Shown: positions 10,736-28,343 of the stretch, in pieces
How the letters are laid out: each line of letters starts with the position of its first letter
How positions within the stretch are numbered: the stretch's first letter is position 1
From: an uncultured Chloroflexia bacterium
Lineage (GTDB): Bacteria; Chloroflexota; Limnocylindria; Limnocylindrales; CSP1-4
Assembly: GCA_963712745.1 (NCBI GenBank)
Contig: CAVQJC010000017.1
Coordinates: forward strand, 352,001-416,000
Reading direction: 5' to 3'
Length of the DNA stretch: 64,000 nt
Program-made: the position numbers and the translations under genes
Notes under the pieces: generated by a model
What the model saw: the letters and a program-made list of their open reading frames with translations, nothing else
Databases searched by the model: none
Told to the model about the DNA's origin: nothing

Positions 10736-12031
10736 CTACGAAGTCGCGTCGACCAGCAGGACCACCCGGAAGGTGCCGTCGGCAGGGGAGCCGATGGCAT
10801 AGGCGCTGTAGTTCTTGCCCTTCTCGAGCGACAGGACAGGCAGGTCGGCGATGACCCCCTTCTTGCCCGGCTTGCGGACGTCCAGATCGTAGTCTCCGGC
10901 CTTCAGGGTCAGGTACTCGAGGACATCCTTGTAGGCGATCTTCTTGACGATCGCGGCCTTGGGCTTGGCGCCGTCTGGAGCGATGTCGACCTTGGGTGCG
11001 TCGGCGCTCAGATGACCCACGCGGAGCTTCGCTCTCTTGGCCTCCGTGGCGGTGTCGTCCTCGATGACGCTGGCTTCGATGTTGGCGAGGCTGTTGCTCG
11101 CGATGATGGTCGTACGCGTATCACCTTCGAAGGGAAGCGTCGCATCGATAACGACCGGGCTGTCCTCGAGCGAGCCTCCCGAACCGATGATCTGGATCTG
11201 GTTCTCCCCGACCGGCACGGTGAGGTAGGGCGAACTCAGCCCGAACGGCAGGTTCCCGAAGACACGAACGCCGTTGAGGACGACGTCGATAGGCGGTGCA
11301 TCCGGTGACCCGTGCAGGATGCGCACCTGTGCCGTGGTGGGGATGGAGGCATCGAGCGCTGGGACCACCGTGAACGTCCCGGCTTCAAGGCTGCCGACCG
11401 CGAAGGCGCTGGAACTCGTTCCGGCGGCGAACTCGAGCGGCGGAAGCGTCACGACCGCATCGGTGCTGCCGGCCTCTCGGACCTCGAGTTCATAGCTGCC
11501 GGGCGGAAGGTTCGCGTAGCCGGAGTCGTCCGGGTATGCGAGGTTCGAGATGATGGGGTCACCGCCGACGGGTGCGATGTCCACCGGTGGGGCGTCGAAC
11601 GCGAAGTGGACCACCCGTGCCTGACCCTCACTGACGCTGGGGCTGGGGTCGTCGAGCAGGACCTGCGGAATGATGCCTTCCGCGAGACTGCCGGTGGCTG
11701 CCACGGTGGTGGCTGTGCCCCCCTCGAAGGTGAGTGCTTCATCGATGACCACGGGGCCCTCGACGAGCGACGAGCCGGCGGGCACGACCTGGATCTGGTA
11801 CTCAGCCGCGGGAACTACCAGGTAGTCCGTGATGGAGCCGAACTCGAGCCCTTCGACGACGCGATCGCCGTTGGCGTAGACGTCGACGGCCGGTGCATCG
11901 CCGGAGCCGTGAAGGACCCGCACCTTGGCGCTCTCATCCTGGGCTGCTGTGGCCGCGGGCATGGCCAGGAGCGCCGCAAGTGCCAACGAGCTGGCCAGCA
12001 CCTTGGCACTGCGGATGGTCGATTCGGGCAT
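10736..12031 (-). CDS. Secreted DUF4397-repeat protein
   Basis: Signal peptide; repeated VRVLHGSxDAPxVD units; GAGGAG SD before ATG 12031. Confidence 0.85.
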   Translation of the reverse strand: MPESTIRSAKVLASSLALAALLAMPAATAAQDESAKVRVLHGSGDAPAVDVYANGDRVVEGLEFGSITDYLVVPAAEYQIQVVPAGSSLVEGPVVIDEALTFEGGTATTVAATGSLAEGIIPQVLLDDPSPSVSEGQARVVHFAFDAPPVDIAPVGGDPIISNLAYPDDSGYANLPPGSYELEVREAGSTDAVVTLPPLEFAAGTSSSAFAVGSLEAGTFTVVPALDASIPTTAQVRILHGSPDAPPIDVVLNGVRVFGNLPFGLSSPYLTVPVGENQIQIIGSGGSLEDSPVVIDATLPFEGDTRTTIIASNSLANIEASVIEDDTATEAKRAKLRVGHLSADAPKVDIAPDGAKPKAAIVKKIAYKDVLEYLTLKAGDYDLDVRKPGKKGVIADLPVLSLEKGKNYSAYAIGSPADGTFRVVLLVDATS

Positions 12032-12323
12032 CTGCTCCTCCTCTGCGCAATTCGTCCGTGACGAGCATCGCGCAAGCCGCCGGACCATGAGCGAATTGGC
12101 GCTCGTCGCAACTCGGTGTCGCGAGTGACAGTCCAGCCACTTCGTGAACCCTGATGCTACACCCGTTGCGTGCTTGTTCCAACCCGTGGAGGGTTCGCTC
12201 AACTGCTCTCGGAAAGGTCGGCCTACGAGGGCGTCCAACCGGTGGCAGGCTACGATGCGTTCAGCCCGTCGGAGGCGTTCCCAATGGACGTCATCGGGCA
12301 GCCCCGAACCCCACAGGTAGCCC

Positions 12324-13358
12324 ATGAACACCTTGACTAACGACAGCGAGCCGATCATCCGCACCGAAGACGTGGTCAAGCGTTTCGGCAAGGAGACGTT
12401 GGCGCTCGACGGCGTCAGCATCGCCATCGCGCCAGGCAGCATCTACGGACTGCTCGGCCCCAACGGTGCCGGCAAGACCACGCTCATCCGAGTCCTTACC
12501 ACGCTGCTGGAGCCCGACTCCGGTGGAGCCTGGGTGGCCGGGGTCGACGTACTCACGGACCCGGTCACGGCTCGAACCAGGATAGGCCTGGCCGGTCAGT
12601 CGGCAGCTATCGACGGTTTCCTGACCGGGCGCGAGAACGTGGTCATGATCGGACAGCTCTACGGACTCTCCACCAAGGAGGCCAAGTCTCGAGCGGCCGA
12701 CGTCCTCGATCGCATCGATCTCACCGAGTCCGCCGATCGCCAGGTCAAGACGTATTCGGGCGGCATGCGCCGGCGCCTTGATCTGGCCGCGTCGCTGGTG
12801 GGTCGGCCGGAGGTGATGTTCCTCGACGAGCCCACCACCGGCATCGACCCGCGCAGCCGCATGGACATCTGGGACATCATCCGCGACCTGCAATCGGACG
12901 GCACCACGCTGCTGATGACCACGCAGTACCTCGAGGAGGTCGACTATCTCGCCGACCGCATCGGCGTCATCGACCACGGCAAGCTCATCGCCGAGGGCAC
13001 CGCCAACGAGCTGAAGTCAGAGATCGGCGGCGCGGTCATCGAGGTGGTCGTGCCCGAGGAGCAGCGGGAGCATGCCTCGCAGGTGCTGCGCCGCGTGACC
13101 GCCGAGGAGCCCATGTTCGAACCCAACAAACGTTGCCTGGTGGTACATGCACCGAACGGTTCCCGGACACTGATGGACGTAGTCCGCGCGCTCGACGAGG
13201 CCGGCTTGACGCCAGACGACCTGGAGATGCACAAGCCCACCCTCGATGAGGTCTTCCTGACTCTCACCGGACATGTCGCCGAGACGCCGGTAGATGAGGG
13301 AGACGATGCCAAGCCGAAGGAAGTCGGCCGCTCGCGATTCGGGAGGCGATCACGATGA
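12324..13358 (+). CDS. ABC exporter ATP-binding subunit (DrrA family)
   Basis: Walker A GPNGAGKTT, signature YSGGMRRRLDL, FLDEPTTG, C-terminal LDEVFL. Confidence 0.93.
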   Translation: MNTLTNDSEPIIRTEDVVKRFGKETLALDGVSIAIAPGSIYGLLGPNGAGKTTLIRVLTTLLEPDSGGAWVAGVDVLTDPVTARTRIGLAGQSAAIDGFLTGRENVVMIGQLYGLSTKEAKSRAADVLDRIDLTESADRQVKTYSGGMRRRLDLAASLVGRPEVMFLDEPTTGIDPRSRMDIWDIIRDLQSDGTTLLMTTQYLEEVDYLADRIGVIDHGKLIAEGTANELKSEIGGAVIEVVVPEEQREHASQVLRRVTAEEPMFEPNKRCLVVHAPNGSRTLMDVVRALDEAGLTPDDLEMHKPTLDEVFLTLTGHVAETPVDEGDDAKPKEVGRSRFGRRSR

Positions 13359-14188
13359 CCAGCCCCGTACGATCGACCCCGGCACGCACTTCCATCGGCG
13401 TAGGTCACGCGCTGCGTGACATGCGCATCATCACCAGGCGGAACCTGTTGCGCTTCACGCGCATGCCCCAGCTCCTGGTGTTCGCGACGATCCAGCCGGT
13501 CATGTTCCTGCTGCTCTTCAACTTCGTCTTCGGCGGCGCCATGGCGCTCGGTCTTGCGGGCGGAGGCGACTACATCAACTTCCTGATCCCCGGCATCCTC
13601 GTCCAGACCGTGGTCTTTGGAGCCACCAACACCGCGGTGGGCCTGACCGAGGACCTCAATGGCGGTGTCATCGACCGCTTCCGGTCGTTGCCCATGGCGC
13701 GTTCCGCGGTGATGGGCGGGCGCACGCTCGCGGATCTGGTTCGCAGCGCCGGCGTCCAGGCGCTGATGCTCATCGTGGGCATCATCATCGGCTTCCAGGC
13801 CGGAAGCTGGGTCGGATTGGCGGTCGGCTTCGTGCTGGCTGTGCTCTTCGGCTTCGCGGTGTCGTGGTTCTTCGCCACCATCGGCCTGATCGTGCGCAAC
13901 CCCGAGGCCACGCAGGGCGCCTCGTTCTTCCTGGTCTTCCCATTCGTCTTCGCGAGCTCGGTGTTCGTACCGACCGCCACGATGCCGGACTGGTTGCGGC
14001 TCTTCGCAGAACACCAGCCGGTAACCATCCTGACCAATACCGTGCGCAAGCTGACCTTCCCCGACGTGCCCATCTCTGGGGGCAATTCGATCGAGTCCCT
14101 GCTGCTGCGTTCGGCCCTCTGGATCGTCGGGCTGATCGTGGTCTTCGGCTGGCTCAGCGTCCGCCAATACAAGAAGGTCGTGGCCTGA
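13355..14188 (+). CDS. ABC-2 type permease (DrrB family)
   Basis: GVIDRFRSLPMAR motif; six TM helices; ATGA overlap with the ATPase gene. Confidence 0.92.
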   Translation: MTSPVRSTPARTSIGVGHALRDMRIITRRNLLRFTRMPQLLVFATIQPVMFLLLFNFVFGGAMALGLAGGGDYINFLIPGILVQTVVFGATNTAVGLTEDLNGGVIDRFRSLPMARSAVMGGRTLADLVRSAGVQALMLIVGIIIGFQAGSWVGLAVGFVLAVLFGFAVSWFFATIGLIVRNPEATQGASFFLVFPFVFASSVFVPTATMPDWLRLFAEHQPVTILTNTVRKLTFPDVPISGGNSIESLLLRSALWIVGLIVVFGWLSVRQYKKVVA

Positions 14189-14306
14189 GCTTGCAGCACC
14201 CGCGAGTCCTGGCCACCGGCCGGCCCGATGCACGGCCCAACGGGCGCAGGGACCTGCCGAACCCCCTGTCTCGGATACTCCCGAACCTCTAGCTGCTCAA
14301 CCTCTA

Positions 14307-15415
14307 GTGGTCCGCGTCATTAGTTCGTTGACAGGATGTGCGATGATGGGCGCATGCAGTCATCCGGGTTCTCCATCACCGATGAGGATCGCTTGACCCT
14401 GACGAGGTGGACGAAGGCCACCACGGTGTCCGCGGGCCATGCCGAGCGCGCGGCGATCGTGCTCGCCTGTGCCGACGGCGCGGGCACGTCGGCGACGGCG
14501 CGCCGGCTCGGGATCTCGCGTCCGACGGTCATCAAGTGGCGGGAGCGGTTCGCCGCGCAGGGCATCGCGGGGCTCGATGACGAGCCGCGCTCCGGCCGGC
14601 CCAAGGTCGTCGACGACGCGGCCATCATCGCGGCCACCCTCGATCCGCCACCCGAGCGGCTGGGCGTGACGCACTGGTCGACGCGCCTGTTGGCCCACGA
14701 GATCGGGGTCGGCGATGCCACGGTCGCGAGAGCCTGGCGCCGCTTCCACGTGCAGCCGTGGCGACAGGGCACGTTCAAGTTCTCGACCGACCCCGAGCTC
14801 GAGGCCAAGGTCCGCGACGTGGTCGGGCTCTACCTCGAGCCGCCCGAGCAGGCGATCGTGCTCTGCGTCGACGAGAAGAGCCAGCTCCAGGCCCTCGACC
14901 GGACCCAGCCGATGCTGCCGCTGCGGCCCGGCCAGGTCGAGCGCCGGACGCACGACTACAAGCGGAACGGGATCACGAACCTGTTCGCCGCGCTCGAGGT
15001 GGCCACGGGCAAGGTCACCGATCGCTGCTACGACCGGCACGGCAAGGCCGAGTTCCTCGACTTCCTCAAGCGCGTGGCCAAGGCCTACCCCCGACGGGAG
15101 CTGCACGTGATCCTCGATAACTACCACACCCACAAGCACGACGATGTCGACCGCTGGCTGGCCAAGCACCCCCGGGTGATGCTCCACTTCACCCCGACCT
15201 CGGGCTCGTGGCTCAACCTCGTCGAGGTCTTCTTCGGCATCATCAGCCGTCAGGCGATCCGCCGCGGCTCGTTCGCCAGCGTCCCGGAGCTCGTGGCCGC
15301 CATCCGGGCCTTCATCGATGGCTGGAACGAGCGCTGCCACCCGTTCACCTGGACGAAGACCGCTGACCAGATCCTGCCCCGCGCGACCCGTCAAACGACT
15401 TCAGACGCGGGACAC
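14307..15415 (+). mobile_element. IS630-family insertion sequence
   Basis: Imperfect terminal inverted repeats: left gtggtccgcgtcattagttcgttgac vs right (reverse complement) gtgtcccgcgtctgaagtcgtttgac. Each end is flanked by TA within CTAG (14305-14306, 15416-15417). Confidence 0.9.
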
Positions 15416-15418
15416 TAG
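14336..15418 (+). CDS. IS630 family transposase
   Basis: N-terminal HTH; DDE motifs CVDEKS, ILDNY, SWLNLVE. Start may be the Met at 14354. Confidence 0.95.
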   Translation: MCDDGRMQSSGFSITDEDRLTLTRWTKATTVSAGHAERAAIVLACADGAGTSATARRLGISRPTVIKWRERFAAQGIAGLDDEPRSGRPKVVDDAAIIAATLDPPPERLGVTHWSTRLLAHEIGVGDATVARAWRRFHVQPWRQGTFKFSTDPELEAKVRDVVGLYLEPPEQAIVLCVDEKSQLQALDRTQPMLPLRPGQVERRTHDYKRNGITNLFAALEVATGKVTDRCYDRHGKAEFLDFLKRVAKAYPRRELHVILDNYHTHKHDDVDRWLAKHPRVMLHFTPTSGSWLNLVEVFFGIISRQAIRRGSFASVPELVAAIRAFIDGWNERCHPFTWTKTADQILPRATRQTTSDAGH

Positions 15419-15614
15419 CGCATGGGTAGAGCACGCCGAGTCGCGACTACGGCCAACGGTAGGCCTGCCCCTTTCCACGCTGCAACGCCGCCCTCCGCCA
15501 AGTAGCCCGGTCGCGCCGTCTCGGACCGAAGCCGACGTCAGCGGTATCGTTGGCTGGCCAATCGAACCAGTCTGAGGTCTCCATGTCCGAGCTCTCGCCA
15601 GTGACCGTCTCTCT

Positions 15615-16352
15615 ATGCGGATGAATCGTCTCGTCCGCCGTGCAACCGTGATGGTGGCACTGGTCGCCATCACGCTGACCGCCGCCTCCGGCAGCGCCAT
15701 CGCCGACCCGCCGACCGCACCATCATCCCCAACGTCCGACGACATGAACGATGCGGCCCCGATGCCGACTTCGATGGCGACACCGACGTCCGAACCGGCG
15801 GAGACACCGGGCCAGGAGTCGACCCAGCCCGTCGCGACCGAACCGCGGGATTGCCGGCGACTCACGGACTTCACCGCCGACGACACGGGCACGTGGTTCA
15901 TCGTGAACGACGGCGTCATGGGGGGCCGTTCCGATGGCGGTGGGCTCATCGCTGAGTCGCTGCTGCAATTCGAAGGCAGCGTCGTAACTGCCGGGGGTGG
16001 ATTCACGAGTGCCAGGCTTCGCTTGGAGGGAGACGAACTGGTCGACACCTCCCGCATCGAGATGCGCGTGCGCCCCGATGTACGCACGTACGGCCTCACC
16101 CTGGAGGACGCCGCCGAATTCCGTGGGCGCCTGGTGTCGCACCGAGCCGATCTCGACATCGGCCCTGTCGACAGCGATGGCTGGGCGATCGCCACGGTGG
16201 AGTACGACCAGCTCGTGCCGTCGGTGTTCGGACTGCTCGTCGACGCGCCGCCGTTCGACCCCGCTGCAGCCCGTGAGCTCGGGATAATCATCGCCGATGG
16301 AATCGACGGCGACTTCGCCCTCGACATCGACTGGATCGACGCCTGCTCCTGA
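15615..16352 (+). CDS. Secreted CIA30-family protein
   Basis: WFIVNDGVMGGRS and GGGFTS motifs after a signal peptide and Pro/Thr linker. Confidence 0.8.
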   Translation: MRMNRLVRRATVMVALVAITLTAASGSAIADPPTAPSSPTSDDMNDAAPMPTSMATPTSEPAETPGQESTQPVATEPRDCRRLTDFTADDTGTWFIVNDGVMGGRSDGGGLIAESLLQFEGSVVTAGGGFTSARLRLEGDELVDTSRIEMRVRPDVRTYGLTLEDAAEFRGRLVSHRADLDIGPVDSDGWAIATVEYDQLVPSVFGLLVDAPPFDPAAARELGIIIADGIDGDFALDIDWIDACS

Positions 16353-16410: not shown

Positions 16411-16525
16411 GGGCCGGTAGCTCAGCAGTCAGAGCAGGGGACTTTTAAGCATTCCGAGCTGAGCGCTGTGCTTCCCTGAGTGGAGGAGCGAGCGAAGCGG
16501 GCACAGTTATCGGCTGTTGGCGAGC
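16411..16525 (+). repeat. tRNA-Lys 5'-half copy 1 (16411-16448) plus conserved 77-nt element end (16449-16525); att-like junction
   Basis: 37/38 identity to 22074-22111, ending at the anticodon loop. The following 77 nt align without gaps to 19087-19163. TACTGT (-10-like) at 16385. Confidence 0.88.
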
Positions 16526-16576
16526 TCGTTCTAGCAGCAGATCAGGTCCACCCCAGAGCACCCCGGGGGCGTCCAG

Positions 16577-16766
16577 CTACTCCTTGTCGGGGTCGATCCC
16601 ACGGGCCCGGAGCATCTCGCGGGGGTCGAGCGTGATGCCCGGCCACTTCTGCGTGAGGCGGCGCTTGGCGTCGGGCGGCACGACCAGGTCCGGATCGATC
16701 TCCAGGTCTCGGAGCCACTGCTCCTGCTGGTCCCTCGATCGCTCGCCGGACGAGCTCGCTTGTCAT
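16577..16766 (-). pseudogene. Small hypothetical protein (about 62 aa) with an apparent one-base frameshift
   Basis: ATG 16766 reads MTSELVRRAIE; after skipping one G it continues DQQEQWLRDLEIDPDLVVPPDAKRRLTQKWPGITLDPREMLRARGIDPDKE* with typical codon usage. Confidence 0.45.
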
Positions 16767-16850
16767 GCGGGGCCGTTCCCTTGACGCGACGGACTTCTCC
16801 GCGTTCCTCCGTCTTGCGTTGCCCACGGGTAGGAGTAATCCATCGGGTGC

Positions 16851-16890
16851 AAGAAGGGACCCGGGCCACCTCGCTGGGCAGGCCCGGGTC
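16851..16890 (-). terminator. Probable intrinsic terminator after the beta-helix gene
   Basis: Stem gacccgggcc/ggcccgggtc followed by ccttctt on the minus strand. Confidence 0.55.
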
Positions 16891-16914
16891 TCGCTGCTTG
16901 TCGCCTGGGTGTGG

Positions 16915-18372
16915 TCAGGCGGCGTCGCAGGTGGTGTTCTCGCCCATCGACGGCGTAGCGTCGTCGTGGATCTTGATGCTGGTCATGCCGCCGCAGGCGC
17001 TGTTGCCGTCGACGCTGGGGCTGGTGTTGGCGCCGATGTCGATGCCCATACCGTCGGCCTCGATCTCGTTGTTCGTGATCTCCGGGGAGCCGCCGCCGAA
17101 GAGGACGATGCCGTTCCAGGTATCGCGGATGGTGTTGTCGATGACCTCGGCATCGCTCCAGGAGACCGAGATGGCGATCATCTCGACAGAGATATCGTTG
17201 CCGCTGACGAGTGGCTGTTCAGTCTCCACGTCCGGGCCACCCTCAGCTGACACGCCATCGCCAGCGCCGGCGCTGACTTGGATGCCGTTGCGCGAGCCGC
17301 TGATGGTGTTGTCGCGGATGACAGGGGCGCCGGCCCTATCGATCTGGATCGCAGACGAGATGGCATAGCCCGTGGCGCCAGTGATGGTGTTGCCCTCGAT
17401 GAGGGCATTGGTCGGAACATCCCCCATGACGCCGCCCACGCTGATGCCGCCTCCGCCGGCCAGGGTGTTGTCTCGGATGACCGTGCTGTCGCCCATGCTG
17501 CCGTAGATGCTCGCGCCGTCGCGCAGATCGTTCCTCGCGATGAGCGGCTCAGCGCTATCCGCTGTCTCGATGCTGCCGCCGTTCACGAGGCTATCAGTGA
17601 GCGTGGCCGTCGAGCCCGACCCGATGAGCAGTCCGAAGTCGGCTCCGTCCAAGACCAGGTCGCTCAGCGTGGGCGACCCACCGTCGACGACGATCGCGCC
17701 CGTGTGACCGGTGACCTCACCCTCGGGGCCGGCGAAGGTCAGCCCGCGGACCTCGGCCTGCGTGTCATCCAACAGGAGTGAGTACGCTACCGTGAACTGC
17801 TGGACAGCCCCGCTCTCGGCGAAGTCGAACGTAGGGCCGCCTTCGGGAATGCTGATGACGACCTTCTCGCGGGGACCGTCACCCGCGACGGTGATGTCCT
17901 TGTCGATGACGATGGCCTCGACGTAGCTGCCAGGCTGCACGAGCACGGTGTCACCCGCAGCGGCCGCAGCCACGGCCTCGGCGATGGTGCTGAAGTCACC
18001 CGAGCCATCGGCGGTCACGACGTGGGTCGAGAGCGCGGCCGCTGGCGGCTGAGTGGGGATGGCGTCGATGACGTTCACCGCCACGGCGGTGATGGCGATG
18101 GCCGCGGTGATGGCCGTGGCGCTGTACATGAGTCGGGACCTCCGGTTCATATGGGGTGGATAGTCGTGATCGGCGGTGCGACGTCTCGCACCTCGGCCAC
18201 GGTCGAACCACCGCCCCAGGAACCGGGCCCTGGTCTGGGGGGTCGTCGGGAGCCGAGACAGGGTCTCGTGCATGATGTGGTCGGTATCGGGGGCCGGCAT
18301 GGCCTCATCACGAGCCGCCAGCCAGCGTCGGACCTGCTCGGCTTCGTGCTCGTTCATCCGTGGGTCGCTCAT
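16915..18372 (-). CDS. Anti-sigma-like membrane protein with extracellular right-handed beta-helix (pectin-lyase/NosD-like) domain
   Basis: About 80-aa cytoplasmic N-terminus, one TM helix, DGSGDFSTIAEAV..GDTVLVQPGSY and repeated I.DNTI beta-helix turns. ATGA overlap with the upstream sigma gene. Confidence 0.75.
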   Translation of the reverse strand: MSDPRMNEHEAEQVRRWLAARDEAMPAPDTDHIMHETLSRLPTTPQTRARFLGRWFDRGRGARRRTADHDYPPHMNRRSRLMYSATAITAAIAITAVAVNVIDAIPTQPPAAALSTHVVTADGSGDFSTIAEAVAAAAAGDTVLVQPGSYVEAIVIDKDITVAGDGPREKVVISIPEGGPTFDFAESGAVQQFTVAYSLLLDDTQAEVRGLTFAGPEGEVTGHTGAIVVDGGSPTLSDLVLDGADFGLLIGSGSTATLTDSLVNGGSIETADSAEPLIARNDLRDGASIYGSMGDSTVIRDNTLAGGGGISVGGVMGDVPTNALIEGNTITGATGYAISSAIQIDRAGAPVIRDNTISGSRNGIQVSAGAGDGVSAEGGPDVETEQPLVSGNDISVEMIAISVSWSDAEVIDNTIRDTWNGIVLFGGGSPEITNNEIEADGMGIDIGANTSPSVDGNSACGGMTSIKIHDDATPSMGENTTCDAA

Positions 18373-18929
18373 GTGCTCGCCTCCGGGCCGCGGCCGAGCG
18401 AGACCGACGGATCGGCACCGGCCATGGCATCGCGGAGTTTGCGCATCGCGTGGTAGAGCCGGGAACGCACGGTTCCCTCGGGGATGTCGAGCGCCCCTGC
18501 GATCTCCGGCAGGGTCATGCCCAGGTAGTGGTGCATCACGACCGCGGCTCGGTGGTCCGTCGAGAGTCCCCGGAAGACGCGCTCAATCTCATCTCGATCG
18601 TGGACTTCCGCATACCCGCCGTGCGTCGCCGGTTCGCGAGTCAGGTCGGTGATGCCGCTCGCTCGCCACCGCTTGGCTCGTCGCGCCTCCGAGTAGCAGG
18701 AGTTGACGAGGACTCGGTAGCTCCAGGCGCCGAATGTGTCGGGCTCGCGCAGCTTGGGCAGCTCCCGCCAGATGCTGAGCAGGGCCTGCTGCGTAGCGTC
18801 TTCCGCCAGGTGTGCGTCGCCGAGGACGCCGCGAGCCACCGCCAGCATTCGGTCGACGACCAATTCGGCCAGCATGGAGAAAGCCCCCTGGTCGCCGGCT
18901 TGCGCTCTGAGCACGAGATCGCGGTCCAT
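18369..18929 (-). CDS. ECF (sigma-70 group IV) sigma factor, cassette 1
   Basis: AQAGDQGAF, AEDATQQALL..W, FGAWSYR; region 4 EIAGALDIPEGTVRSRLYHA. Confidence 0.93.
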   Translation of the reverse strand: MDRDLVLRAQAGDQGAFSMLAELVVDRMLAVARGVLGDAHLAEDATQQALLSIWRELPKLREPDTFGAWSYRVLVNSCYSEARRAKRWRASGITDLTREPATHGGYAEVHDRDEIERVFRGLSTDHRAAVVMHHYLGMTLPEIAGALDIPEGTVRSRLYHAMRKLRDAMAGADPSVSLGRGPEAST

Positions 18930-19048
18930 GCCTCTCCCGATGGTGCACCCGCCTGTCGAGCGCACTTACCCATACAGACGCAGGCGGCCGTGGAACCGAC
19001 TCAATGGTCACGCCAGGACGTGTGTGGGCTAGGCTTGGGGCTTCCACG

Positions 19049-19163
19049 GGGCCGGTAGCTCAGCGGTCAGAGCAGGGGACTTTTTAGCATTCCGGGCTCA
19101 ACGCTGCAGCCCCCTGCGTGGAGGGGCGAGCGTACGGGGCACAGTTATCGTCTGTAGATGAGC
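19049..19163 (+). repeat. tRNA-Lys 5'-half copy 2 (19049-19086) plus conserved 77-nt element end; att-like junction
   Basis: 37/38 identity to the tRNA 5' half; 60/77 identity to 16449-16525 by manual alignment. TAGGCT (-10-like) at 19030. Confidence 0.88.
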
Positions 19164-19334
19164 ACGAGTCACGCGCTCCACAGCGAGGCTCGGCTCTGGC
19201 TGGCGTCAAGGCCCGGCCTCAGCGAGAAATCGAGGGAACAGTTCGGCCTTCCGTTGCCCCATAAGATGCGTACAGGCCATCATCGATACCGGCACCGATG
19301 AGCTGACGGCTACAGACGCCGGATGGGGGGTTCG

Positions 19335-19898
19335 GTGGATTCCGACCTCGTGGTCCAGGCACAGGGCGGCGACCACGCTGCGTTCGAGCGGCTCGCGCTC
19401 GTGGTCAGCGATCGCGTCCATGGCATCGCGTTCAACATCCTGCGCGACTCCGACCAGGCCGAAGACGCCACGCAGCAGACACTCCTGGCCGTCTGGCGGG
19501 ACCTCCCACAGCTACGCGATCCGGCCCGTTTCGAAGCCTGGGTCTACCGGATCGCTGTCCGTGCCTGCCACGCCGAAGCCCGCCGCACCCGGCGCTGGCT
19601 GTCGCTCGTCTCGCCCTGGTCTGGCGGAGGCCCCACGGTCTCTGACGCCGACCTCGATGCGGTCGCCGACCGGGACCAGTTCGACCGAGCCTTCCGTCGC
19701 CTCTCGGTGGACCAGCGCACGGTCATCGTGCTGCACCACTACCTCGGGCTGACGATCGAGCAGGTCGCCGAAACGGTCGGGGTCTCGGATGGCACGGTCA
19801 AATCCCGACTCAGCCGAGCCTGCGCGAGGCTCCGGACGGCCCTGGTGGCCGATGCGACCGACACCGGTGAGACCACACGCATGGGGCTGATCCGATGA
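19335..19898 (+). CDS. ECF sigma factor, cassette 2
   Basis: AQGGDHAAF, AEDATQQTLL..W, FEAWVYR, GTVKSRLSRA. GTG start chosen by homology to cassette 1. Confidence 0.93.
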   Translation: MDSDLVVQAQGGDHAAFERLALVVSDRVHGIAFNILRDSDQAEDATQQTLLAVWRDLPQLRDPARFEAWVYRIAVRACHAEARRTRRWLSLVSPWSGGGPTVSDADLDAVADRDQFDRAFRRLSVDQRTVIVLHHYLGLTIEQVAETVGVSDGTVKSRLSRACARLRTALVADATDTGETTRMGLIR

Positions 19899-21529
19899 GT
19901 GCCGAGCGCGACCTCAACGACATCCTCGAAGCGCGTCTGCGCGACGTCCCACCACTCCGTCCGACAGTCCTCAGCGACGTCTTCGATCAGACCCGGATGA
20001 TGCCGCAGCGCCGACATCGGTGGCCGCTCCATCTCCTCCAAGGTCGCACCGAGCGCCTCACGGATGTATCGGCTACGGATGCGGTTCCTGCTGCAGTTCC
20101 AGATACGGATGGGCGACAGCCCGTAAGGGGGTCCACGATGTTCTCCGCACTCAAGTTCATCGCCGCTGGCGTCATCGTGGCGCTGTTCGGCGGCTTCCTG
20201 CTCGCAGGCCTTCTGACGGTGCCGAGCGACGACGAGGCCCCTCCGGCGGCGGTGACCGAGTCACCCTCGCCTACGACGACCGAGGAGTTGCTCTCGGGCA
20301 TGGTCACGGAGGAAGTCGAGCCGGGGGTGTTCCGGCTCCTCGACGATGGTGCAGGGCACCCCATGGGAGCGGAGGACGTGACCAACTACGCCACACCCTA
20401 CGTCGGCCCTGATGGAGCCGTCTGGGTCCGCGCCGGGGTGAGTGACATGGACGGCGACACCGTGATGTGGCGACTCGGCGTGCCGGGCCGCCACCAGCAG
20501 TCACCGGAGAGAGGCTTCTCCGACCCGTCCGACTTCGCCACGGCCCCTGATGGAACGCTGTGGGTCGCTGGCTACGCCTACCTCTCCTCCTACGATGGCG
20601 ACTCGTGGACCGAGCATCGGGTCGCGAAGGACCCGTCCAGGGAGTGGCCGCCGAATGCCACGGCGGTCGAGGTCTTGCCCGACGGGACCGTCTGGGCGGC
20701 GTGGGAAGACCGCCTCGGGCGACTCGACGCCGAAGGCTGGCACTACCACCACCCCGCCATGGAGGAGGACGAACGGCTATCGGACCTCCGCGTCCTGCCC
20801 GATGGGTCCATCCTCGCCTTCATGTGGCACGGCCGCATGCTCCGCTTCGACGGAGCCGCGTGGCAGGAGGTCCCGATGCCGGACGTCGGTGCGGCGACCC
20901 GCGTCAGCGGCATCCGCATCGGCTCTGATGGCACCCTCTGGGTGCACTTCATCTCACGTTCGACGGCCCCCGTGCGCGGGAGCGAACCGCGGACGGATTG
21001 GTGGGGCAGCGACGAGGTCCCACAGGACCACCTGGCCCGCTTCGACGGCAAAGCGTGGACGACCTACTCGGCCACCGACGGCCTGCCTCGACTCACCCAT
21101 TCGTCCAGACCTGAGCCGGAATGGGACGTGCATCCCGATGGTTCGGTGTGGGTCCTCGCCGACCCGGAGCAGACCACGGTGTCCGACCCTGGTTCACTCC
21201 TGTGGACGCTGATGTCCTTCGATGGCAAGACATGGACCGAGTGGCCTGATGGGATCGAGTTGCTCGATGTCGGAAGCGACAAGGTCGAGTTGCTCGACAT
21301 CGGTCCTGATGGGACCGTCTGGATGGGCAAGCCCGGTCCAGACCACGAGGAGCGCCTCCATCTCGCATCGCTCGACGGCACCACCTGGCGGCAGTACCCA
21401 CGACTCCTAGTCACAGGTGGAGACCCAGACTGGGATAGCCTCGAGGTCGCCCCGGACGGCAGCGTATGGGTGAAGGCCGACGATGACCGCGGCCTCTACG
21501 TCATCACCCCCGAGGCCGTGGCGGAGTAG
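19895..21529 (+). CDS. Anti-sigma-like membrane protein with extracellular beta-propeller repeats
   Basis: About 80-aa N-terminus, TM helix KFIAAGVIVALFGGFLLAG, repeated PDGxxW...FDGxxW blades. ATGA overlap with the sigma gene. Confidence 0.78.
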   Translation: MSAERDLNDILEARLRDVPPLRPTVLSDVFDQTRMMPQRRHRWPLHLLQGRTERLTDVSATDAVPAAVPDTDGRQPVRGSTMFSALKFIAAGVIVALFGGFLLAGLLTVPSDDEAPPAAVTESPSPTTTEELLSGMVTEEVEPGVFRLLDDGAGHPMGAEDVTNYATPYVGPDGAVWVRAGVSDMDGDTVMWRLGVPGRHQQSPERGFSDPSDFATAPDGTLWVAGYAYLSSYDGDSWTEHRVAKDPSREWPPNATAVEVLPDGTVWAAWEDRLGRLDAEGWHYHHPAMEEDERLSDLRVLPDGSILAFMWHGRMLRFDGAAWQEVPMPDVGAATRVSGIRIGSDGTLWVHFISRSTAPVRGSEPRTDWWGSDEVPQDHLARFDGKAWTTYSATDGLPRLTHSSRPEPEWDVHPDGSVWVLADPEQTTVSDPGSLLWTLMSFDGKTWTEWPDGIELLDVGSDKVELLDIGPDGTVWMGKPGPDHEERLHLASLDGTTWRQYPRLLVTGGDPDWDSLEVAPDGSVWVKADDDRGLYVITPEAVAE

Positions 21530-21641
21530 GCTCGCGGCAGACGATCCGGCAGCCCCATGCACATCGGTAGCTACGTGGGCTGAACTGCAGCAAGCGCAGC
21601 CATATCCGCCTAAGAGGGGACCATAGCTGGCCTCTGTTGCT

Positions 21642-21755
21642 CCGTAGAGCCGACAAGTGGACTGCTATCAGCGCACGTCCGGAGGGCTTCCTGAGCGTAG
21701 CTGGAGCCCGTGACGAGGGTCCAGACAGCCGGTGGCTGGTCGATGTGTTCGCGTC
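21642..21755 (+). repeat. About 110-bp repeat, copy A (inverted relative to 22275-22384)
   Basis: ccgtagagccga...gcgcacgtccgga...ctgagcgt..gggtccagac.gccggtggctg matches the reverse complement of 22275-22384. Confidence 0.8.
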
Positions 21756-21942
21756 GAAGGTCGCGGGCATTGCTGGGCATGACCGTCGAGAGGACGTATC
21801 GGGTCAAGCCCTCCACGGCCTTGGCGTACGTCCTGACCGTCTGGTCGGCCATGTTGGCGGCCAGCAGGCTCCGTTCGAAGGATCCGAGATCGACGAGGAG
21901 GGGCGGGGTAGCATGTGCTGCGGTGAGAGCTTCGGCTGGCAT
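21742..21942 (-). pseudogene. Truncated tyrosine recombinase/integrase, N-terminal SAM-like domain only
   Basis: SFERSLLAANMADQTVRTYAKAVEGL...DLRREHI is typical of XerC/D-like N-termini. The ORF breaks where the 110-bp repeat begins. Confidence 0.65.
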
Positions 21943-22073
21943 CGAACGGACCTTTCGCTGGGAGGTGGGCGCCTCCCACGATCACTGTCTGTTCGACCGT
22001 TGCAGCCAGAGATCTTATCGGTGCATGGATCAGCTATCGGCTCTATCGGAGCACGAAACTGGCCAGAAACCTC

Positions 22074-22149
22074 GGGCCGGTAGCTCAGCGGTCAGAGCAG
22101 GGGACTTTTAATCCTCGTGTCCTGGGTTCGAATCCCAGCCGGCTCACCA
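22074..22149 (+). tRNA. tRNA-Lys (anticodon TTT)
   Basis: Full cloverleaf: GGGCCGG/CCGGCTC acceptor stem, GGGGA-CTTTTAA-TCCTC anticodon arm, TTCGAAT T-loop, encoded CCA. Confidence 0.96.
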
Positions 22150-22213
22150 CTTCTTTCGGGTATCCACGCTCCGATGCGAGGTAATCCCTCGCTCGTGCGG
22201 CCTTCCTGGAACG

Positions 22214-22237
22214 GCTGACAGCCACGTTGACAGCAAC
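22214..22237. promoter_or_regulatory. Tandem 12-bp repeat, probable integrase arm-type binding sites
   Basis: gctgacagccac-gttgacagcaac lies about 65 bp downstream of the tRNA 3' end. Confidence 0.5.
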
Positions 22238-22274
22238 GTCAGACGCACTCAGTCGTATGCAGAGCACGTCTGTG

Positions 22275-22384
22275 GACGCGATATCGGACAGCCACCGGCC
22301 GTCTGGACCCTGATTGCGGGCTTCAGCAACGCTCAGCCAGCCTTCCGGACGTGCGCCGGATGCTGTCACTTTTCGGCTCTACGG
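22275..22384 (-). repeat. About 110-bp repeat, copy B
   Basis: Reverse-complement homolog of 21642-21755. Confidence 0.8.
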
Positions 22385-22448: not shown

Positions 22449-24038
22449 TCACCGCTCGGCAAGGCCCGAGTCCGAAGCCGGGAGATCGTCGAACGTGATG
22501 ATCCAGTGGTCACGCTGCCACCCGTTGGACTCCTCGTCCTCGTAGACCGAGTGCGCGATGGTGTTGCCGCTGATCGGAGCGATCCCCGCACCGCCCGCCC
22601 CAAAGGTGTCGGTCTTCAGGCCCAGCGGGACGTTGACCACGGTCGGTTCCGCGGAGTCGGCCGAGTGGAAGACCATGCTGCCACCGGTGAGCTCCACCCA
22701 GGTCGACCCCAACGGGGCCACGAAGAAGGCCTGTGGCCGCTGCGGGACCTGTTGCCATTCGACGCCATCGGATGACACCCACTCCTCCGACTCCTGCCTC
22801 GCCTCGTCGAAGCTCCAGGTCACCACCCCGTTCGGCTTCCGGACGCCCATCTCCGGGTCTGCTGGCAGCAGTCCCTGGACTCCCGCCGGCTCACCGGGTT
22901 CGTCTCCGAGGACTTCACCGAGCGTCCACTCCCCGCCATCTGGCGACGTCCATGTCTGGATCATCCCGTCGGCTCTCATCGCGAGCGCTGTGAAGCCGCC
23001 ATCGGACCCAGACACGACGAAGGCTTGAGTGGACGTCCCGGAGTCGGGCTCGGGCAGCTCGACGGACCCGACTCGACCATCCCGTACGAGTCCCATCTGC
23101 TGTACGGCCGGGGGATAGCCGTCGCCCACGGCCCAGCGCTCGACGAAATCGATGCCCACACCCTCGAGCGTTTTGAGCTCGGCGCCCGTGGCAGCGTCGA
23201 CCACGCGAAGGCCAGCATCGGTCTCCTCGAACCGGAGGGTGGCGTGCTCGTCGTCGTACGCACCCAGGACCCGGTAGCTGCCGTCATCGATGCGCTCGAG
23301 CCGGGCGAACTCGCCACGCTGGTCCTCCCCTTCGGGATGGGACGGTAGCCCCAGGAAGCTCGTGGCGTTCGTCACCCCGAACTCAAGCGGCACGACGATG
23401 GCATCCCCGGAGGCCGCGACACCTCCAAGGTCAAGCCGCCAGTCGATGGCCGCGGGTGAGGGCGGCTCCACGCCGGTCAGGTCGACCGCCTCCCACTCGA
23501 GCGCATCGGTCGATCGCCATAATGACGGCAGAGCGAGGCTGCCGGGCTCGTACGTGGAGAAGTCGTGCGCCGTGAGCCAGTACTCGCCGCCGGCCTGGGT
23601 GAGGCTGAGCTCCTCGAAGTCGGCCTCGATGGGTAGTGGCCTGCGCGTCCACTCAAGCAGGTCCGGCGAGAACCACAGGTGCTGGCAGTTGTGTTCCGAC
23701 GGGCACGGTCCGTAGATGTGGCCGGGCCCGTCGAGCGATACATATCCGCCTTGGACCGGGATAGGGCGCAACACGTCGGGAAGCGACTCTGCATCTCCGC
23801 TCAGATGGACCCAACGCGTGGACCCGAGCGGCGTGTCCAGCGTGTGCGACTCGATGTCCTCCGGGATCTCCGCCGGCAGCTCGATCGGCCGGGTGGTCGT
23901 CGACGACGGCGATGCAGACACACCGACCGCCGGTGCCAACTCGTCGTTCGGCTGGGTCGTCATCACTCCTGCCAGCAGGAAGCCGCCGAACAGGGCCACG
24001 ATGGCACCGGCGACGACGAACTTGGTCGCACTGAACAT
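22449..24038 (-). CDS. Exported Asp-box (BNR) repeat protein; C-terminal part of an anti-sigma-like protein of cassette 3
   Basis: Begins MFSATKFVVAGAIVALFGGFLLAG, nearly identical to the TM of 19895-21529, with a GGAGG SD. Repeats WFSPDLLEW, WRSTDALEW, WTSPDGGEW, WVSSDGVEW. Confidence 0.75.
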   Translation of the reverse strand: MFSATKFVVAGAIVALFGGFLLAGVMTTQPNDELAPAVGVSASPSSTTTRPIELPAEIPEDIESHTLDTPLGSTRWVHLSGDAESLPDVLRPIPVQGGYVSLDGPGHIYGPCPSEHNCQHLWFSPDLLEWTRRPLPIEADFEELSLTQAGGEYWLTAHDFSTYEPGSLALPSLWRSTDALEWEAVDLTGVEPPSPAAIDWRLDLGGVAASGDAIVVPLEFGVTNATSFLGLPSHPEGEDQRGEFARLERIDDGSYRVLGAYDDEHATLRFEETDAGLRVVDAATGAELKTLEGVGIDFVERWAVGDGYPPAVQQMGLVRDGRVGSVELPEPDSGTSTQAFVVSGSDGGFTALAMRADGMIQTWTSPDGGEWTLGEVLGDEPGEPAGVQGLLPADPEMGVRKPNGVVTWSFDEARQESEEWVSSDGVEWQQVPQRPQAFFVAPLGSTWVELTGGSMVFHSADSAEPTVVNVPLGLKTDTFGAGGAGIAPISGNTIAHSVYEDEESNGWQRDHWIITFDDLPASDSGLAER

Positions 24039-24053
24039 GGACTGGAACCTCCC

Positions 24054-24272: not shown

Positions 24273-24354
24273 CCTTCGTTCGGCGTCCACAATGACATGA
24301 CGATCGGCGCACCCGAAACATTCATTCAGAGCTGCCCAACGTGGAGTGTTTGGG

Positions 24355-28200: not shown

Positions 28201-28343
28201 CGGATGGGGCAGCCGCTGAGCTGCCGACTCGGCACCGCGTCCATCCCCATCCCCATCGCCGCCTGCCGCTGCCGCTCCGCGAGCACATGGCCGTAGGCGT
28301 TCGGGGTCAGAAGACCAGAGCTGTGCCCGAGGAGGTTCCTACG

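What the first reader, a model, noticed from the sequence alone, without database searches (positions are those of the whole stretch)
16449..19163. Conserved 77-nt sequence fused to each tRNA half at the anticodon loop
16449-16525 and 19087-19163 align without gaps at 60/77 positions (manual count) and start exactly where tRNA identity stops. Both can form a short hairpin (gcttc..ggagc vs gcccc..ggggc, one apparent compensatory change), followed by gcgagcg and gggcacagttatcg. The divergence points to two independent insertions of related elements rather than a recent duplication. Each half also has a TAnnnT box upstream, so a chimeric half-tRNA small RNA could be transcribed (inference).
Basis: partly seen in the sequence, partly recalled or inferred. 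Interest (0 to 1): 0.7.

Follow-up and report, generated by a model that had tools for sequence, protein, structure and literature searches.

The report
Integration scars at a tRNA-Lys gene
The two conserved 77-base stretches are the left ends of two small mobile DNA elements that inserted one after the other into the anticodon loop of a tRNA-Lys gene, a known kind of genomic-island scar and probably not a new RNA.

Summary
Positions 16449-16525 and 19087-19163 match at 60 of 77 positions, and each starts where a 38-nt 5' half of tRNA-Lys(UUU) ends. The intact gene lies at 22074-22149.

Three genomes of the same genus have the empty site: the same upstream gene, an intact tRNA-Lys, and the same downstream flank. 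The window therefore carries a 5.66-kb insertion in the anticodon loop. It consists of two stacked elements, each carrying an ECF sigma/anti-sigma pair. Each element begins with the ~75-nt motif and ends with its own copy of the tRNA 5' half.

The motif family occurs in 20 of 49 genomes of the genus. It always abuts a displaced half of tRNA-Lys, Gly, Arg or Val, and always points towards the intact tRNA.

Related apparently intact elements carry a 313-aa Xer-like tyrosine integrase beside the tRNA. One such element has 39-nt perfect repeats plus the motif. A truncated copy of this integrase sits at window 21610-21942.

I found no support for an RNA role: no Rfam hit, no excess folding stability, no consensus structure in 84 copies, and no covariation above shuffles.

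Most cassettes are small (about 0.7-3 kb) and lack an integrase. They may be moved in trans, as integron cassettes are, but this is unproven.

The parts
16411..16448 (+). Displaced 5' half of tRNA-Lys(UUU), acceptor arm through the full anticodon loop. This is the original chromosomal half, left behind at the outer junction (attL).
   Evidence: 37/38 identical to the intact gene. The upstream flank is collinear with the empty sites of G027, G029 and G066.
16449..16525 (+). Motif copy A: the conserved ~75-nt left end of element A, on the element side of the crossover.
   Evidence: Matches model R1 at 66 bits, E 8e-18. 60/77 identical to copy B.
16449..19086 (.). Element A (2,638 bp): motif, cargo, and its own tRNA-Lys 5' half. 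No integrase trace was found.
   Evidence: Its orthologue in G013 is the only element there; 93% identity over 3.3 kb including flanks. tblastn with 11 family integrases found nothing in it at E<=1e-3.
16915..18372 (-). Cargo of A: 485-aa protein with a right-handed beta-helix domain. It is likely the anti-sigma/sensor partner of the adjacent sigma factor (the partner role is inferred).
   Evidence: Pfam Beta_helix 6e-18, NosD 2e-10.
18369..18965 (-). Cargo of A: ECF-type sigma factor, 198 aa.
   Evidence: Pfam Sigma70_r2 1e-12, Sigma70_r4_2 5e-14.
19049..19086 (+). Second displaced 5' half of tRNA-Lys. Element A brought it in, and element B displaced it when it inserted. The loop carries one change, A to T.
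   Evidence: 36 of its first 36 nt are identical to the intact gene, and 37/38 overall.
19087..19163 (+). Motif copy B: the conserved left end of element B.
   Evidence: Matches model R1 at 63.7 bits, E 4e-17.
19087..22111 (.). Element B (3,025 bp): motif, cargo, truncated integrase, and the tRNA 5' half that now forms the first 38 nt of the working gene.
   Evidence: Geometry. Its tRNA-proximal 360 bp is 76% identical to the corresponding end in G005.
19323..19898 (+). Cargo of B: ECF-type sigma factor, 191 aa.
   Evidence: Pfam Sigma70_r2 8e-14, Sigma70_r4_2 6e-16.
19895..21529 (+). Cargo of B: 544-aa protein overlapping the sigma gene stop. Probably an anti-sigma/sensor protein (inferred).
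   Evidence: Only a weak Reg_prop match, 1e-3 and below the cut-off. Internal repeats D7, D9 and D16.
21610..21942 (-). Truncated integrase. Only about 60 N-terminal residues of the family's tyrosine recombinase remain (homology 21739-21927). It reads away from the tRNA, as in intact elements.
   Evidence: blastp to 10 of 11 family integrases, E 3e-10 to 4e-5. tblastn E 7e-8. There is no Pfam hit on the 110-aa ORF.
22074..22149 (+). Intact tRNA-Lys(UUU). Positions 22074-22111 were supplied by element B; 22112-22149 are chromosomal.
   Evidence: ARAGORN and Rfam at 68.5 bits. It is the only tRNA-Lys(UUU) found in the assembly.
22150..22245 (+). Chromosomal flank downstream of the tRNA, shared with empty-site genomes and with G014.

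Best explanation
The two 77-nt stretches are the element-side ends of two related integrative elements. In the excised circle this arm lies just beyond the crossover point of attP. The elements inserted one after the other, by site-specific recombination, into the anticodon loop of the single tRNA-Lys(UUU) gene.

Each element has the layout [~75-nt motif][cargo][integrase, lost or truncated here][tRNA 5' half including the 7-nt loop]. Integration joins the element's 5' half to the chromosomal 3' half, so the tRNA stays intact. The previous 5' half is pushed upstream, where it abuts the incoming element's motif. Two rounds give the observed order: [5' half][motif A][cargo A][5' half][motif B][cargo B][integrase remnant][intact tRNA].

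The enzyme is a simple Xer-like tyrosine recombinase of about 313 aa, encoded next to the tRNA half and read away from it.

What is shown:
- the insertion and its geometry;
- the motif family and its constant association with tRNA halves;
- the association with this integrase family.

What is inferred:
- crossover occurs inside the 7-nt loop;
- the motif binds the integrase or an accessory protein, or controls integrase expression from the excised circle.

In this genome the elements are probably immobile relics. Element B has only an integrase stump, and no intact family integrase was found in the assembly.
For: 1. Empty sites. G027, G029 and G066 have the same CIA30-domain gene flank running straight into an intact tRNA-Lys, then the same downstream flank as window 22150-22245. 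Identity with the window's outer junction stops exactly at the end of the anticodon loop.

2. Layout. There are three copies of the 5' half and one 3' half. Orphans lie upstream in the same orientation.

3. Modularity. G013 has only element A, and G014 has a different 1.4-kb cargo (an APH-like kinase) between the same kind of junction and tRNA-Lys.

4. Family.
- Model R1 finds the motif in 20 of 49 genomes of the genus, 44 hits.
- It finds 84 hits in 66 fetched sources; some of these sources overlap or are orthologous, so the 84 are not independent copies.
- By my reading, 26 of 32 hits in 30 loci directly follow a clear tRNA half, 2 more follow a decayed half, and 4 follow none.
- All 31 hits on 22 metagenome contigs follow at least the anticodon-arm part of a tRNA.
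- The targets are Lys-UUU, Gly-CCC, Gly-UCC, Arg-UCG and Val-GAC.
- Wherever both were on the fetched stretch, the intact tRNA lies downstream of the motif.

5. Integrase.
- A fragment next to tRNA-Gly in L064 led to full-length homologs in 12 of 49 genomes.
- All 12 fetched loci have a tRNA gene within the 1.5-kb flanks.
- L117 holds an apparently intact element: 39-nt perfect repeat, motif directly after the orphan half, about 17 kb of cargo, then a 313-aa integrase. Its Pfam domains are Phage_int_SAM_1 plus Phage_integrase.
- L114, L115 and L121 also have perfect 39-44-nt repeats.

6. An integrase remnant lies in the window at the predicted place and orientation.

7. In L074 the orphan halves decay with distance from the tRNA: 100, 97.8, 93.2, 95.6 and 93.0% identity. 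This fits stepwise accretion at the tRNA.
Against: - No integrase trace was found in element A.
- No family integrase was found anywhere in the window's genome with the L064 fragment at E<=1e-5. The assembly is 84.6% complete.
- The motif is not universal in the family. nhmmer at E<=1 found it in only 1 of 12 integrase-bearing loci (L117). By eye it is recognisable in L115 and L119 but not in L114 or L121.
- In 7 of those 12 loci no displaced tRNA fragment was found within the 20 kb fetched.
- The integrase has no arm-binding domain. Direct binding of the motif by the integrase is therefore a guess.
- No excised circle and no empty-site joint were seen in the four public runs laid on the region. 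These were contigs only.
- The first ~10 nt of the motif do not mimic the 3' arm of the anticodon stem, so the element-side core site is not evident from sequence.
Confidence: 0.85

Rival explanations
1. Integron-like cassette platform. This refines the best explanation and does not exclude it. The small integrase-less units, each [motif + one to three genes + tRNA half], are themselves the mobile units. They would be captured at the tRNA and excised as circles by a family integrase supplied in trans. The [tRNA half + motif] junction would play the part that attC plays in integrons.
For: - Cassettes of 668-1,391 bp hold one or two complete small genes and show no integrase homology.
- Spacings between consecutive motif starts in the arrays include 669, 742 and 811 bp. 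All are too short for a 313-aa integrase gene.
- Many integrase-less cassettes are bounded by orphan halves 100% identical to the intact tRNA. Examples: L084 47/47 twice, L081 three times, L074 46/46, L076 38/38.
- The same cassette occurs with different neighbours. L024 vs L092 share 84% over 645 bp with unrelated cassettes on both sides. One cassette shared by L022, L081 and L092 is followed by different cassettes.
- tblastn with 11 family integrases over all arrays found remnants only in L018, L064/L066 and the window. Weaker short matches occurred in L074 and L078.
Against: - No circular cassette junction was seen.
- 15 of the 20 motif-positive genomes have no family integrase by the query used.
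- Loss and reshuffling can also come from homologous recombination between the ~115-bp direct repeats. Perfect halves could be kept by gene conversion from the intact tRNA.
- Element B in the window and the L064/L066 and L072 elements do show decayed integrases. Decay of autonomous elements therefore does happen.
Confidence: 0.35
2. The tRNA 5' half plus the 77 nt is transcribed from the tRNA promoter as a structured chimeric small RNA with its own function.
For: - The outer copy (16411) keeps the native tRNA upstream region, so transcription into the motif is plausible.
- Short hairpins can be drawn. One pair of copies shows a two-sided change: CCCCT/AGGGG in copy B against CTCCT/AGGAG in G013 (read by eye).
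- A contig from an RNA library covers a half+motif junction (record 9). Such libraries can contain DNA, so this does not show transcription.
Against: - No Rfam family matches.
- Folding energy is no better than shuffles, with z from -0.46 to +1.11 over both strands.
- RNAalifold gives 0 pairs on 84 copies.
- The hairpin is paired in only 64% or 48% of cells, and covariation is not above shuffles.
- In the Gly and Val arrays the motif abuts the reverse complement of a 3' half. No tRNA promoter reads into it there.
- No promoter-like or terminator-like site was found.
Confidence: 0.07
3. Local tandem duplication of a chromosomal segment containing the tRNA half, followed by divergence, with no mobile element involved.
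For: The two units are adjacent and direct, with similar spacing of 2,638 and 3,025 bp.
Against: - Outside the half and motif the two units share no collinear similarity, and their sigma genes lie on opposite strands.
- The motif occurs at other tRNA genes on other contigs and in other genomes.
- G013 has one unit, and G027, G029 and G066 have none.
- An integrase remnant is present.
Confidence: 0.02

Closest known systems
Genomic islands integrated in tRNA/tmRNA genes by tyrosine integrases, as defined by the Islander database (PMC4383910; I saw the abstract and passages from 'find', including Table 1)
   Same: The target gene is split and restored by the island. A displaced tDNA fragment marks the far end. 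The site is centred on the anticodon. Tandem arrays occur. Table 1 lists 2,083 islands with an anticodon-centred site and 125 tandems of two or more.
   Different: The displaced piece here is the 5' half, which is the minority case (159 of 3,919 islands against 3,760 with a 3' fragment in that table). Most units here lack an integrase, so Islander's integrase filter would reject them. A shared ~75-nt arm is conserved across elements with different tRNA targets.
Anticodon-loop sublocation of tRNA-targeting integrases (Williams 2002, NAR 30:866). I did not read the paper itself; I saw it cited in PMC4383910 and summarised in passages of bioRxiv 10.1101/2020.11.02.365908.
   Same: Identity between element and target ends at the border of the 7-nt anticodon loop, flanked by the symmetric stem arms.
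   Different: Both polarities occur within one motif family: 5'-half carriers for Lys, Arg and one Gly-UCC copy, and 3'-half carriers for Gly and Val. The Klebsiella preprint mentions only one clade that integrates upstream of its tDNA.
Tycheposons of Prochlorococcus (bioRxiv 10.1101/2020.12.28.424599; passages from 'find' only)
   Same: These are tRNA-specific tyrosine recombinases, each tied to its tRNA. Repeated integration at one tRNA pushes older elements inward. Islands hold partial tRNAs and fragmented integrases.
   Different: Different phylum and habitat. Whether the integrases are related was not tested, as no tycheposon sequence was at hand. That text does not describe a conserved ~75-nt arm next to the tRNA fragment in the passages I saw.
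Integrons (recalled knowledge; no paper read)
   Same: Arrays of small, mostly promoterless-looking cassettes of one to a few genes, each bounded by a recombination site. The newest lies nearest the insertion point. The same cassette occurs in different neighbourhoods. Cargo includes acetyltransferase-like and toxin-antitoxin-like genes (those two names read by eye from translations).
   Different: No integrase gene sits next to the insertion point. The insertion point is a tRNA gene, not attI. The junction does not fold as a conserved hairpin. NCBIfam integron integrase scores 37 bits against a cut-off of 265.
Simple (arm-less) tyrosine integrases such as mycobacteriophage Brujita Int (PDB 5vfz; classification in PMC8138268, passages from 'find')
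   Same: The protein has a core-binding SAM-like domain plus a catalytic domain only, about 313 aa. It matches 5vfz at E 6e-9 and XerD 1a0p at 2e-22. Simple recombinases on mobile elements are the minority: 27 phages against 410, and 12 ICEs against 211, in that paper.
   Different: It is below every curated Xer cut-off. Its subgroup in that classification was not determined.
CIMEs: integrase-less elements bounded by att sites and mobilised by a related ICE (recalled knowledge; no paper read)
   Same: Cargo-only units flanked by functional-looking att sites, stacked next to the target.
   Different: The units here are much smaller, target tRNA anticodon loops, and have no shown mobilisation.

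Membership tests
tDNA-integrated genomic island (Islander criteria) | An intact tDNA plus a displaced fragment of it in the same orientation, with a 5' fragment lying upstream | tested here: met
   Fragments at 16411-16448 and 19049-19086 lie upstream of the intact gene at 22074-22149, all on the + strand.
tDNA-integrated genomic island (Islander criteria) | An integrase gene inside each island | tested here: inconclusive
   Element B holds only a remnant of about 60 residues. Element A holds none. Related elements hold full-length genes.
tDNA-integrated genomic island (Islander criteria) | Unoccupied target in relatives, with flanks collinear across the insertion | tested here: met
   G027, G029 and G066.
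Anticodon-loop class of tRNA integration sites | Element/target identity ends at the anticodon loop | tested here: met
   Identity stops after the 7-nt loop in the Lys, Gly, Arg and Val copies. The exact strand-exchange positions were not tested.
Tyrosine recombinase (Pfam PF00589) | Catalytic domain above the curated cut-off | tested here: met
   L117 integrase scores 78.3 bits against a cut-off of 27.1, with Phage_int_SAM_1 at 48.3 bits. The window remnant itself has no Pfam hit.
XerC/XerD chromosome-dimer resolvases | Score above the NCBIfam equivalog cut-off | tested here: not met
   XerC 150 bits against 335, and XerD 138 against 330. The genome has its own two strong Xer-like genes on contig C4.
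Integron | Integron-type integrase adjacent to the cassette insertion site | tested here: not met
   No recombinase flanks the arrays. The integron integrase model scores 37 bits against 265.
Integron | Cassette-borne site that folds as an imperfect hairpin (attC) | tested here: not met
   The 120-nt half+motif units fold no better than shuffles when folded as RNA. There is no consensus structure. DNA parameters were not tried.
Structured non-coding RNA | Rfam match or a conserved, covarying secondary structure | tested here: not met
Tycheposon | Integrase belonging to the tycheposon recombinase clades | not tested

The most novel reading that the evidence does not exclude
The tRNA genes of this Chloroflexota genus serve as anchors for an integron-like gene-capture system. 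Integrase-less cassettes of about 0.7-3 kb, each [75-nt arm + one to three genes + tRNA half], would be inserted at the anticodon loop, excised and reshuffled in trans by small Xer-like integrases. The [tRNA half + arm] junction would be the cassette recombination site. The cassettes spread ECF sigma/anti-sigma pairs, a heliorhodopsin, hydrolases and other accessory genes.
Probability: 0.35. Interest if true: 0.65.

Novelty: new member of a known kind. Interest (0 to 1): 0.35.

Why it matters
As given, the finding is explained by a well-known process. Genomic islands insert into tRNA genes and leave displaced gene fragments behind. This removes the case for a new chimeric tRNA-derived RNA.

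Three points are of modest wider interest.
- It documents the uncommon polarity in which the island replaces the promoter-proximal half of the tRNA. The element must then also provide the signals that express an apparently single-copy tRNA.
- It defines a searchable ~75-nt marker. The marker finds such junctions at five or more tRNA species across a poorly studied, uncultured Chloroflexota genus and in sediment, soil and wetland metagenomes.
- It exposes arrays of very small integrase-less cassettes rich in ECF sigma/anti-sigma pairs. If these are moved in trans, they would be a tRNA-anchored counterpart of integron cassettes, driven by a minimal tyrosine recombinase. That pairing would be a compact site-specific integration tool.

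Tried and rejected
RNA reading.
- The Rfam gathering scan of the whole window found only the two intact tRNAs.
- Single-sequence folds of both units on both strands were unremarkable.
- RNAalifold on 84 copies gave no pairs.
- No promoter or terminator consensus was found.

Coding reading of the 77 nt. The 17 differences between the copies show no three-base periodicity (my count). I dropped this idea.

Recombinase hunt that failed at first.
- Pfam on ORFs inside and around the window elements and the arrays of G000, L024, L028, L073, L060, L065 and L076 found only cargo.
- PF00589 and PF00239 scans of the own genome, and a PF00589 scan of five other genomes, found no recombinase next to the arrays. 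Serine recombinases in those five genomes were not scanned.
- The 586-aa integrase on contig C12 has no motif or tRNA near it.
- The lead finally came from tblastn with the genome's own Xer-like proteins.

The integrase C-terminal fragment at window 24366-24560(-) lies 2.2 kb beyond the tRNA and points towards it. That does not fit the family layout, and its kinship is ambiguous: 41% to the L072 fragment and 45-48% to the Xer-like proteins. I left it out of the model.

Public reads.
- No run holds more than 0.30 of the sampled words.
- All four runs laid were contigs.
- The two 'goes back' joints are best read as related strains with a different or mosaic motif after element A, not as circles.
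- No joint skips the insertion.
- Nothing can be said about transcription, starts or ends.

Clustering of ORFs around the motifs gave cargo families, with sigma factors the largest cluster, and no shared recombinase.

Literature. The paper search for cassette arrays at anticodon loops gave nothing relevant (terms 'anticodon loop', 'integration', 'tRNA fragments', 'gene cassettes', 'tandem'). I make no claim that the cassette reading is absent from print beyond that one search and the tycheposon search. Supplementary files were not consulted. The Islander and tycheposon supplements may list comparable cases.


Full report
THE OBSERVATION

The region holds three copies of the first 38 nt of tRNA-Lys(UUU), running from the acceptor arm through the whole 7-nt anticodon loop. 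They lie at 16411-16448, 19049-19086 and 22074-22111. Only the last continues into a complete gene, 22074-22149.

The sequences that follow the first two copies, 16449-16525 and 19087-19163, align without gaps at exactly 60 of 77 positions. Random 77-mer pairs of the window average 21.9 matches, with a maximum of 39 in 20,000 draws. Similarity fades after about 80 nt.

WHAT LIES BETWEEN THE COPIES

The interval 16449-19048 encodes an ECF sigma factor (18369-18965, minus strand) and a 485-aa beta-helix protein (16915-18372, minus strand). The interval 19087-22073 encodes another ECF sigma factor (19323-19898, plus strand) and a 544-aa protein (19895-21529, plus strand). Apart from the half and the motif, the two intervals are not collinear, and their sigma genes face opposite ways.

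THE SITE IS AN INSERTION

Searching the genus with the upstream flank found three genomes: G027, G029 and G066. In each, the same CIA30-domain gene flank runs directly into an intact tRNA-Lys(UUU), followed by the flank that in the window lies at 22150-22245.

In the alignment, the window's outer junction is identical to the empty sites up to the last base of the anticodon loop and unrelated after it. So 16449-22111 (5.66 kb) is inserted DNA.

The insertion is modular.
- G013 has only the first unit (93% identity over 3.3 kb) and then the intact tRNA.
- G014 has the same kind of junction followed by a single APH-like kinase gene and the tRNA, 1.4 kb in all.

The window therefore carries two elements. 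Element A is 16449-19086 and element B is 19087-22111. Each starts with the motif and ends with a tRNA 5' half. B inserted into the tRNA that A had restored.

THE MOTIF IS A FAMILY MARKER

An HMM of five Lys-type copies picked up weaker relatives on another contig of the same genome. Four lie next to reverse-complemented 3' halves of tRNA-Gly(CCC). One lies next to a 5' half of tRNA-Arg(UCG), 11 kb upstream of the intact tRNA-Arg.

A degenerate core pattern found 8 contigs of Chloroflexi/Chloroflexota MAGs and 22 metagenome contigs.

A sequence-only model (R1, built from 17 copies) found the following:
- the motif in 20 of 49 genomes of the genus, 44 hits at E<=0.001;
- 84 hits in the 66 sources I had fetched, some of which overlap or are orthologous.

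Association with tRNA halves:
- By my reading, 26 of 32 hits in 30 loci directly follow a clear tRNA half. Two more follow a decayed half and four follow none.
- All 31 hits on the metagenome contigs follow at least the anticodon arm of a tRNA.
- The targets are Lys-UUU, Gly-CCC, Gly-UCC, Arg-UCG and Val-GAC. Motif-like sequence also lies beside Pro and Gln fragments.

The geometry is constant. Reading along the motif, the order is orphan half including the full loop, then motif, then cargo, then intact tRNA. The tRNA can lie either way. Lys, Arg and one Gly-UCC copy keep a 5' half. The Gly and Val arrays keep a 3' half. This fits a recombinase that uses the symmetric anticodon stem-loop.

The conserved blocks are three GAGCG-containing stretches and CAGTTA, lying 15-65 nt from the junction.

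THE RECOMBINASE

No recombinase lies inside or beside most arrays. tblastn with the genome's own Xer-like proteins found two fragments. One is an N-terminal piece 93 nt from tRNA-Gly(UCC) in L064. The other is a C-terminal piece about 1 kb from a motif in L072.

The L064 piece recovered homologs in 12 of 49 genomes, with 16 matches. All 12 fetched loci contain a tRNA gene next to the match: Arg-UCG seven times, Gly-UCC twice, and Pro, Ala and Val once each.

With 20 kb of context, 5 of 12 loci show a displaced tRNA fragment at the far end.
- L114, L115 and L117: 39 nt, 100% identical.
- L121: 44 nt, 100% identical.
- L119: 20 nt.
- In the other seven loci none was found in the stretch fetched.

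L117 is the clearest case. It has the orphan 5' half of tRNA-Arg, the motif directly after it, about 17 kb of cargo, a 313-aa integrase reading away from the tRNA, and then the intact tRNA. The motif is recognisable by eye in L115 and L119 but not in L114 or L121.

The integrase has a SAM-like core-binding domain and a catalytic domain only.
- It scores far below the curated XerC, XerD and integron-integrase cut-offs.
- Its nearest solved relatives are XerD, XerA and the arm-less Brujita phage integrase.
- Such simple recombinases are the minority on mobile elements (PMC8138268, passages).

THE WINDOW'S OWN INTEGRASE REMNANT

The 110-aa ORF at 21610-21942 (minus strand) lies 130 nt upstream of the intact tRNA-Lys and reads away from it. 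Over its first ~68 residues it aligns with the N-termini of 10 of 11 family integrases, E 3e-10 to 4e-5. This is the place and orientation seen in intact elements.

The same truncated end is shared with G005, 76% over 371 bp, so the truncation is old. Element A has no trace of an integrase. No intact family integrase was found in this 84.6%-complete assembly.

THE RNA IDEA

Nothing supports it.
- There is no Rfam family.
- Folding energies are within the shuffle distribution on both strands.
- No consensus pairs are predicted on 84 copies.
- No promoter-like or terminator-like sites were found.
- In the Gly and Val arrays the motif follows the antisense of a tRNA 3' half. There a tRNA-promoter-driven chimera is impossible.

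Transcription as such remains untested.

HOW IT MOST LIKELY WORKS

Shown:
- insertion in the anticodon loop with restoration of the gene;
- stacking of two elements;
- a motif that marks the element side of the junction across many tRNA targets;
- a dedicated simple tyrosine integrase family positioned next to the element's tRNA half.

Inferred:
- Strand exchange occurs within the 7-nt loop.
- The motif is an accessory part of attP. It could hold binding sites for extra integrase protomers or a directionality factor.
- Alternatively, the motif is a control region that lies upstream of the integrase only in the excised circle. That would make integrase expression depend on excision.
- Because the element replaces the promoter-proximal half, it must also supply the upstream signals for the only tRNA-Lys(UUU) found in the assembly. 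The three upstream regions are unrelated.

THE CASSETTE QUESTION

Most units are small and lack an integrase.
- Units of 668-1,391 bp hold one or two complete genes with no integrase homology.
- Many are bounded by orphan halves 100% identical to the intact tRNA.
- In L074 identity falls with distance from the tRNA, as expected for stepwise accretion.
- The same cassette occurs with different neighbours in different contigs.
- A heliorhodopsin cassette is shared by seven tRNA-Gly(CCC) loci, and different cassettes lie between it and the tRNA in the arrays examined (L020, L060, L062, L074).

This pattern resembles integron arrays and suggests mobilisation in trans. Three things keep it open.
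- Homologous recombination between the ~115-bp repeats could produce similar patterns.
- So could gene conversion and clean decay of autonomous elements.
- No circular cassette was seen.

COMPARISON WITH WHAT IS KNOWN

The finding fits the definition of tDNA-integrated islands used by Islander. That database already records anticodon-centred sites (2,083), tandem arrays (125) and the rarer 5'-fragment class (159 of 3,919) (PMC4383910, Table 1 as seen in passages). Stacked elements with partial tRNAs and broken integrases are also described for tycheposons (bioRxiv 10.1101/2020.12.28.424599, passages).

It is not an integron. No adjacent integron-type integrase is present, and the junction does not fold as a hairpin site.

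VERDICT

- The small-RNA inference is unsupported.
- The feature is a new member of a known kind.
- The open and more interesting possibility is that the integrase-less cassettes form a tRNA-anchored capture system.

Noticed in passing
window 21642-21744 and 22283-22384: An inverted repeat of about 100 nt (80-94% complementary) brackets the integrase stump and the intact tRNA-Lys. The left arm is the non-integrase tail of the truncated ORF. The right arm lies just past the conserved chromosomal flank and is not in the empty-site genomes. It may mark the rearrangement that truncated the integrase.
   Followed up: partly
window 24366-24560 (-): The C-terminal ~60 residues of a tyrosine integrase (HxLRH...LGH...Y) are read in frame into the 666-aa ORF 22449-24449. 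A related 81-nt stretch is repeated at 28258-28338. The stretch 24.5-29.6 kb has few confident ORFs and includes an adenylate-cyclase fragment at 27793-28146(-). It looks like a decayed island downstream of the tRNA.
   Followed up: partly
window 14336-15418 (+): An IS630-like transposase (DDE_3 plus HTH domains) lies 1 kb upstream of the first tRNA half. The stretch 9035-15787 is not shared with G013 or G014.
   Followed up: no
G000 contig C20:652.6-660.5 kb (L020): A second array in the same genome has four motif copies beside tRNA-Gly(CCC) 3' halves. One cassette encodes a heliorhodopsin (L020:9267-10337, Pfam 8e-75) and is conserved in seven loci of the genus. The others encode ECF sigma factors. 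The array runs off the contig end.
   Followed up: partly
all arrays: ECF sigma factors and their partners are by far the commonest cargo. The largest ORF cluster has 53 members in 15 loci. The cluster may include shadow ORFs.
   Followed up: no
G000 contig C20:1-11226 (L019): An 11-kb unit lies between a perfect 38-nt tRNA-Arg(UCG) 5' half plus motif and the intact tRNA-Arg at the contig start. Its cargo includes an Mrr-like restriction endonuclease with a helicase-like part, a methyltransferase, an alpha/beta hydrolase and an HTH regulator. No integrase was found.
   Followed up: partly
L063 (G068:C10) 9547-9654: ARAGORN calls a second tRNA-Gln(CUG) that overlaps a motif copy on the opposite strand, 3 kb from another tRNA-Gln(CUG). 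This may be a further target or a chimeric call.
   Followed up: no
copies A, B and G013 (alignment A2); X2 contig joint 19127->16486: The G013 copy of motif A is a mosaic. Its first half resembles window copy B and its second half is identical to copy A. A public contig shows the same mosaic. This suggests recombination or conversion between motif copies.
   Followed up: no
L074 2628-3589 and L092 1198-1936: By eye, small cassettes look like an antitoxin plus PIN-type toxin pair and a GNAT-type acetyltransferase. These names are read from the translations and were not tested against Pfam.
   Followed up: no
L076 5121-6293 (G064): The single-gene cassette at tRNA-Lys in G064 encodes a Pfam Beta-lactamase-fold (PF00144) serine hydrolase. 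It is bounded by a perfect 38-nt orphan half.
   Followed up: no
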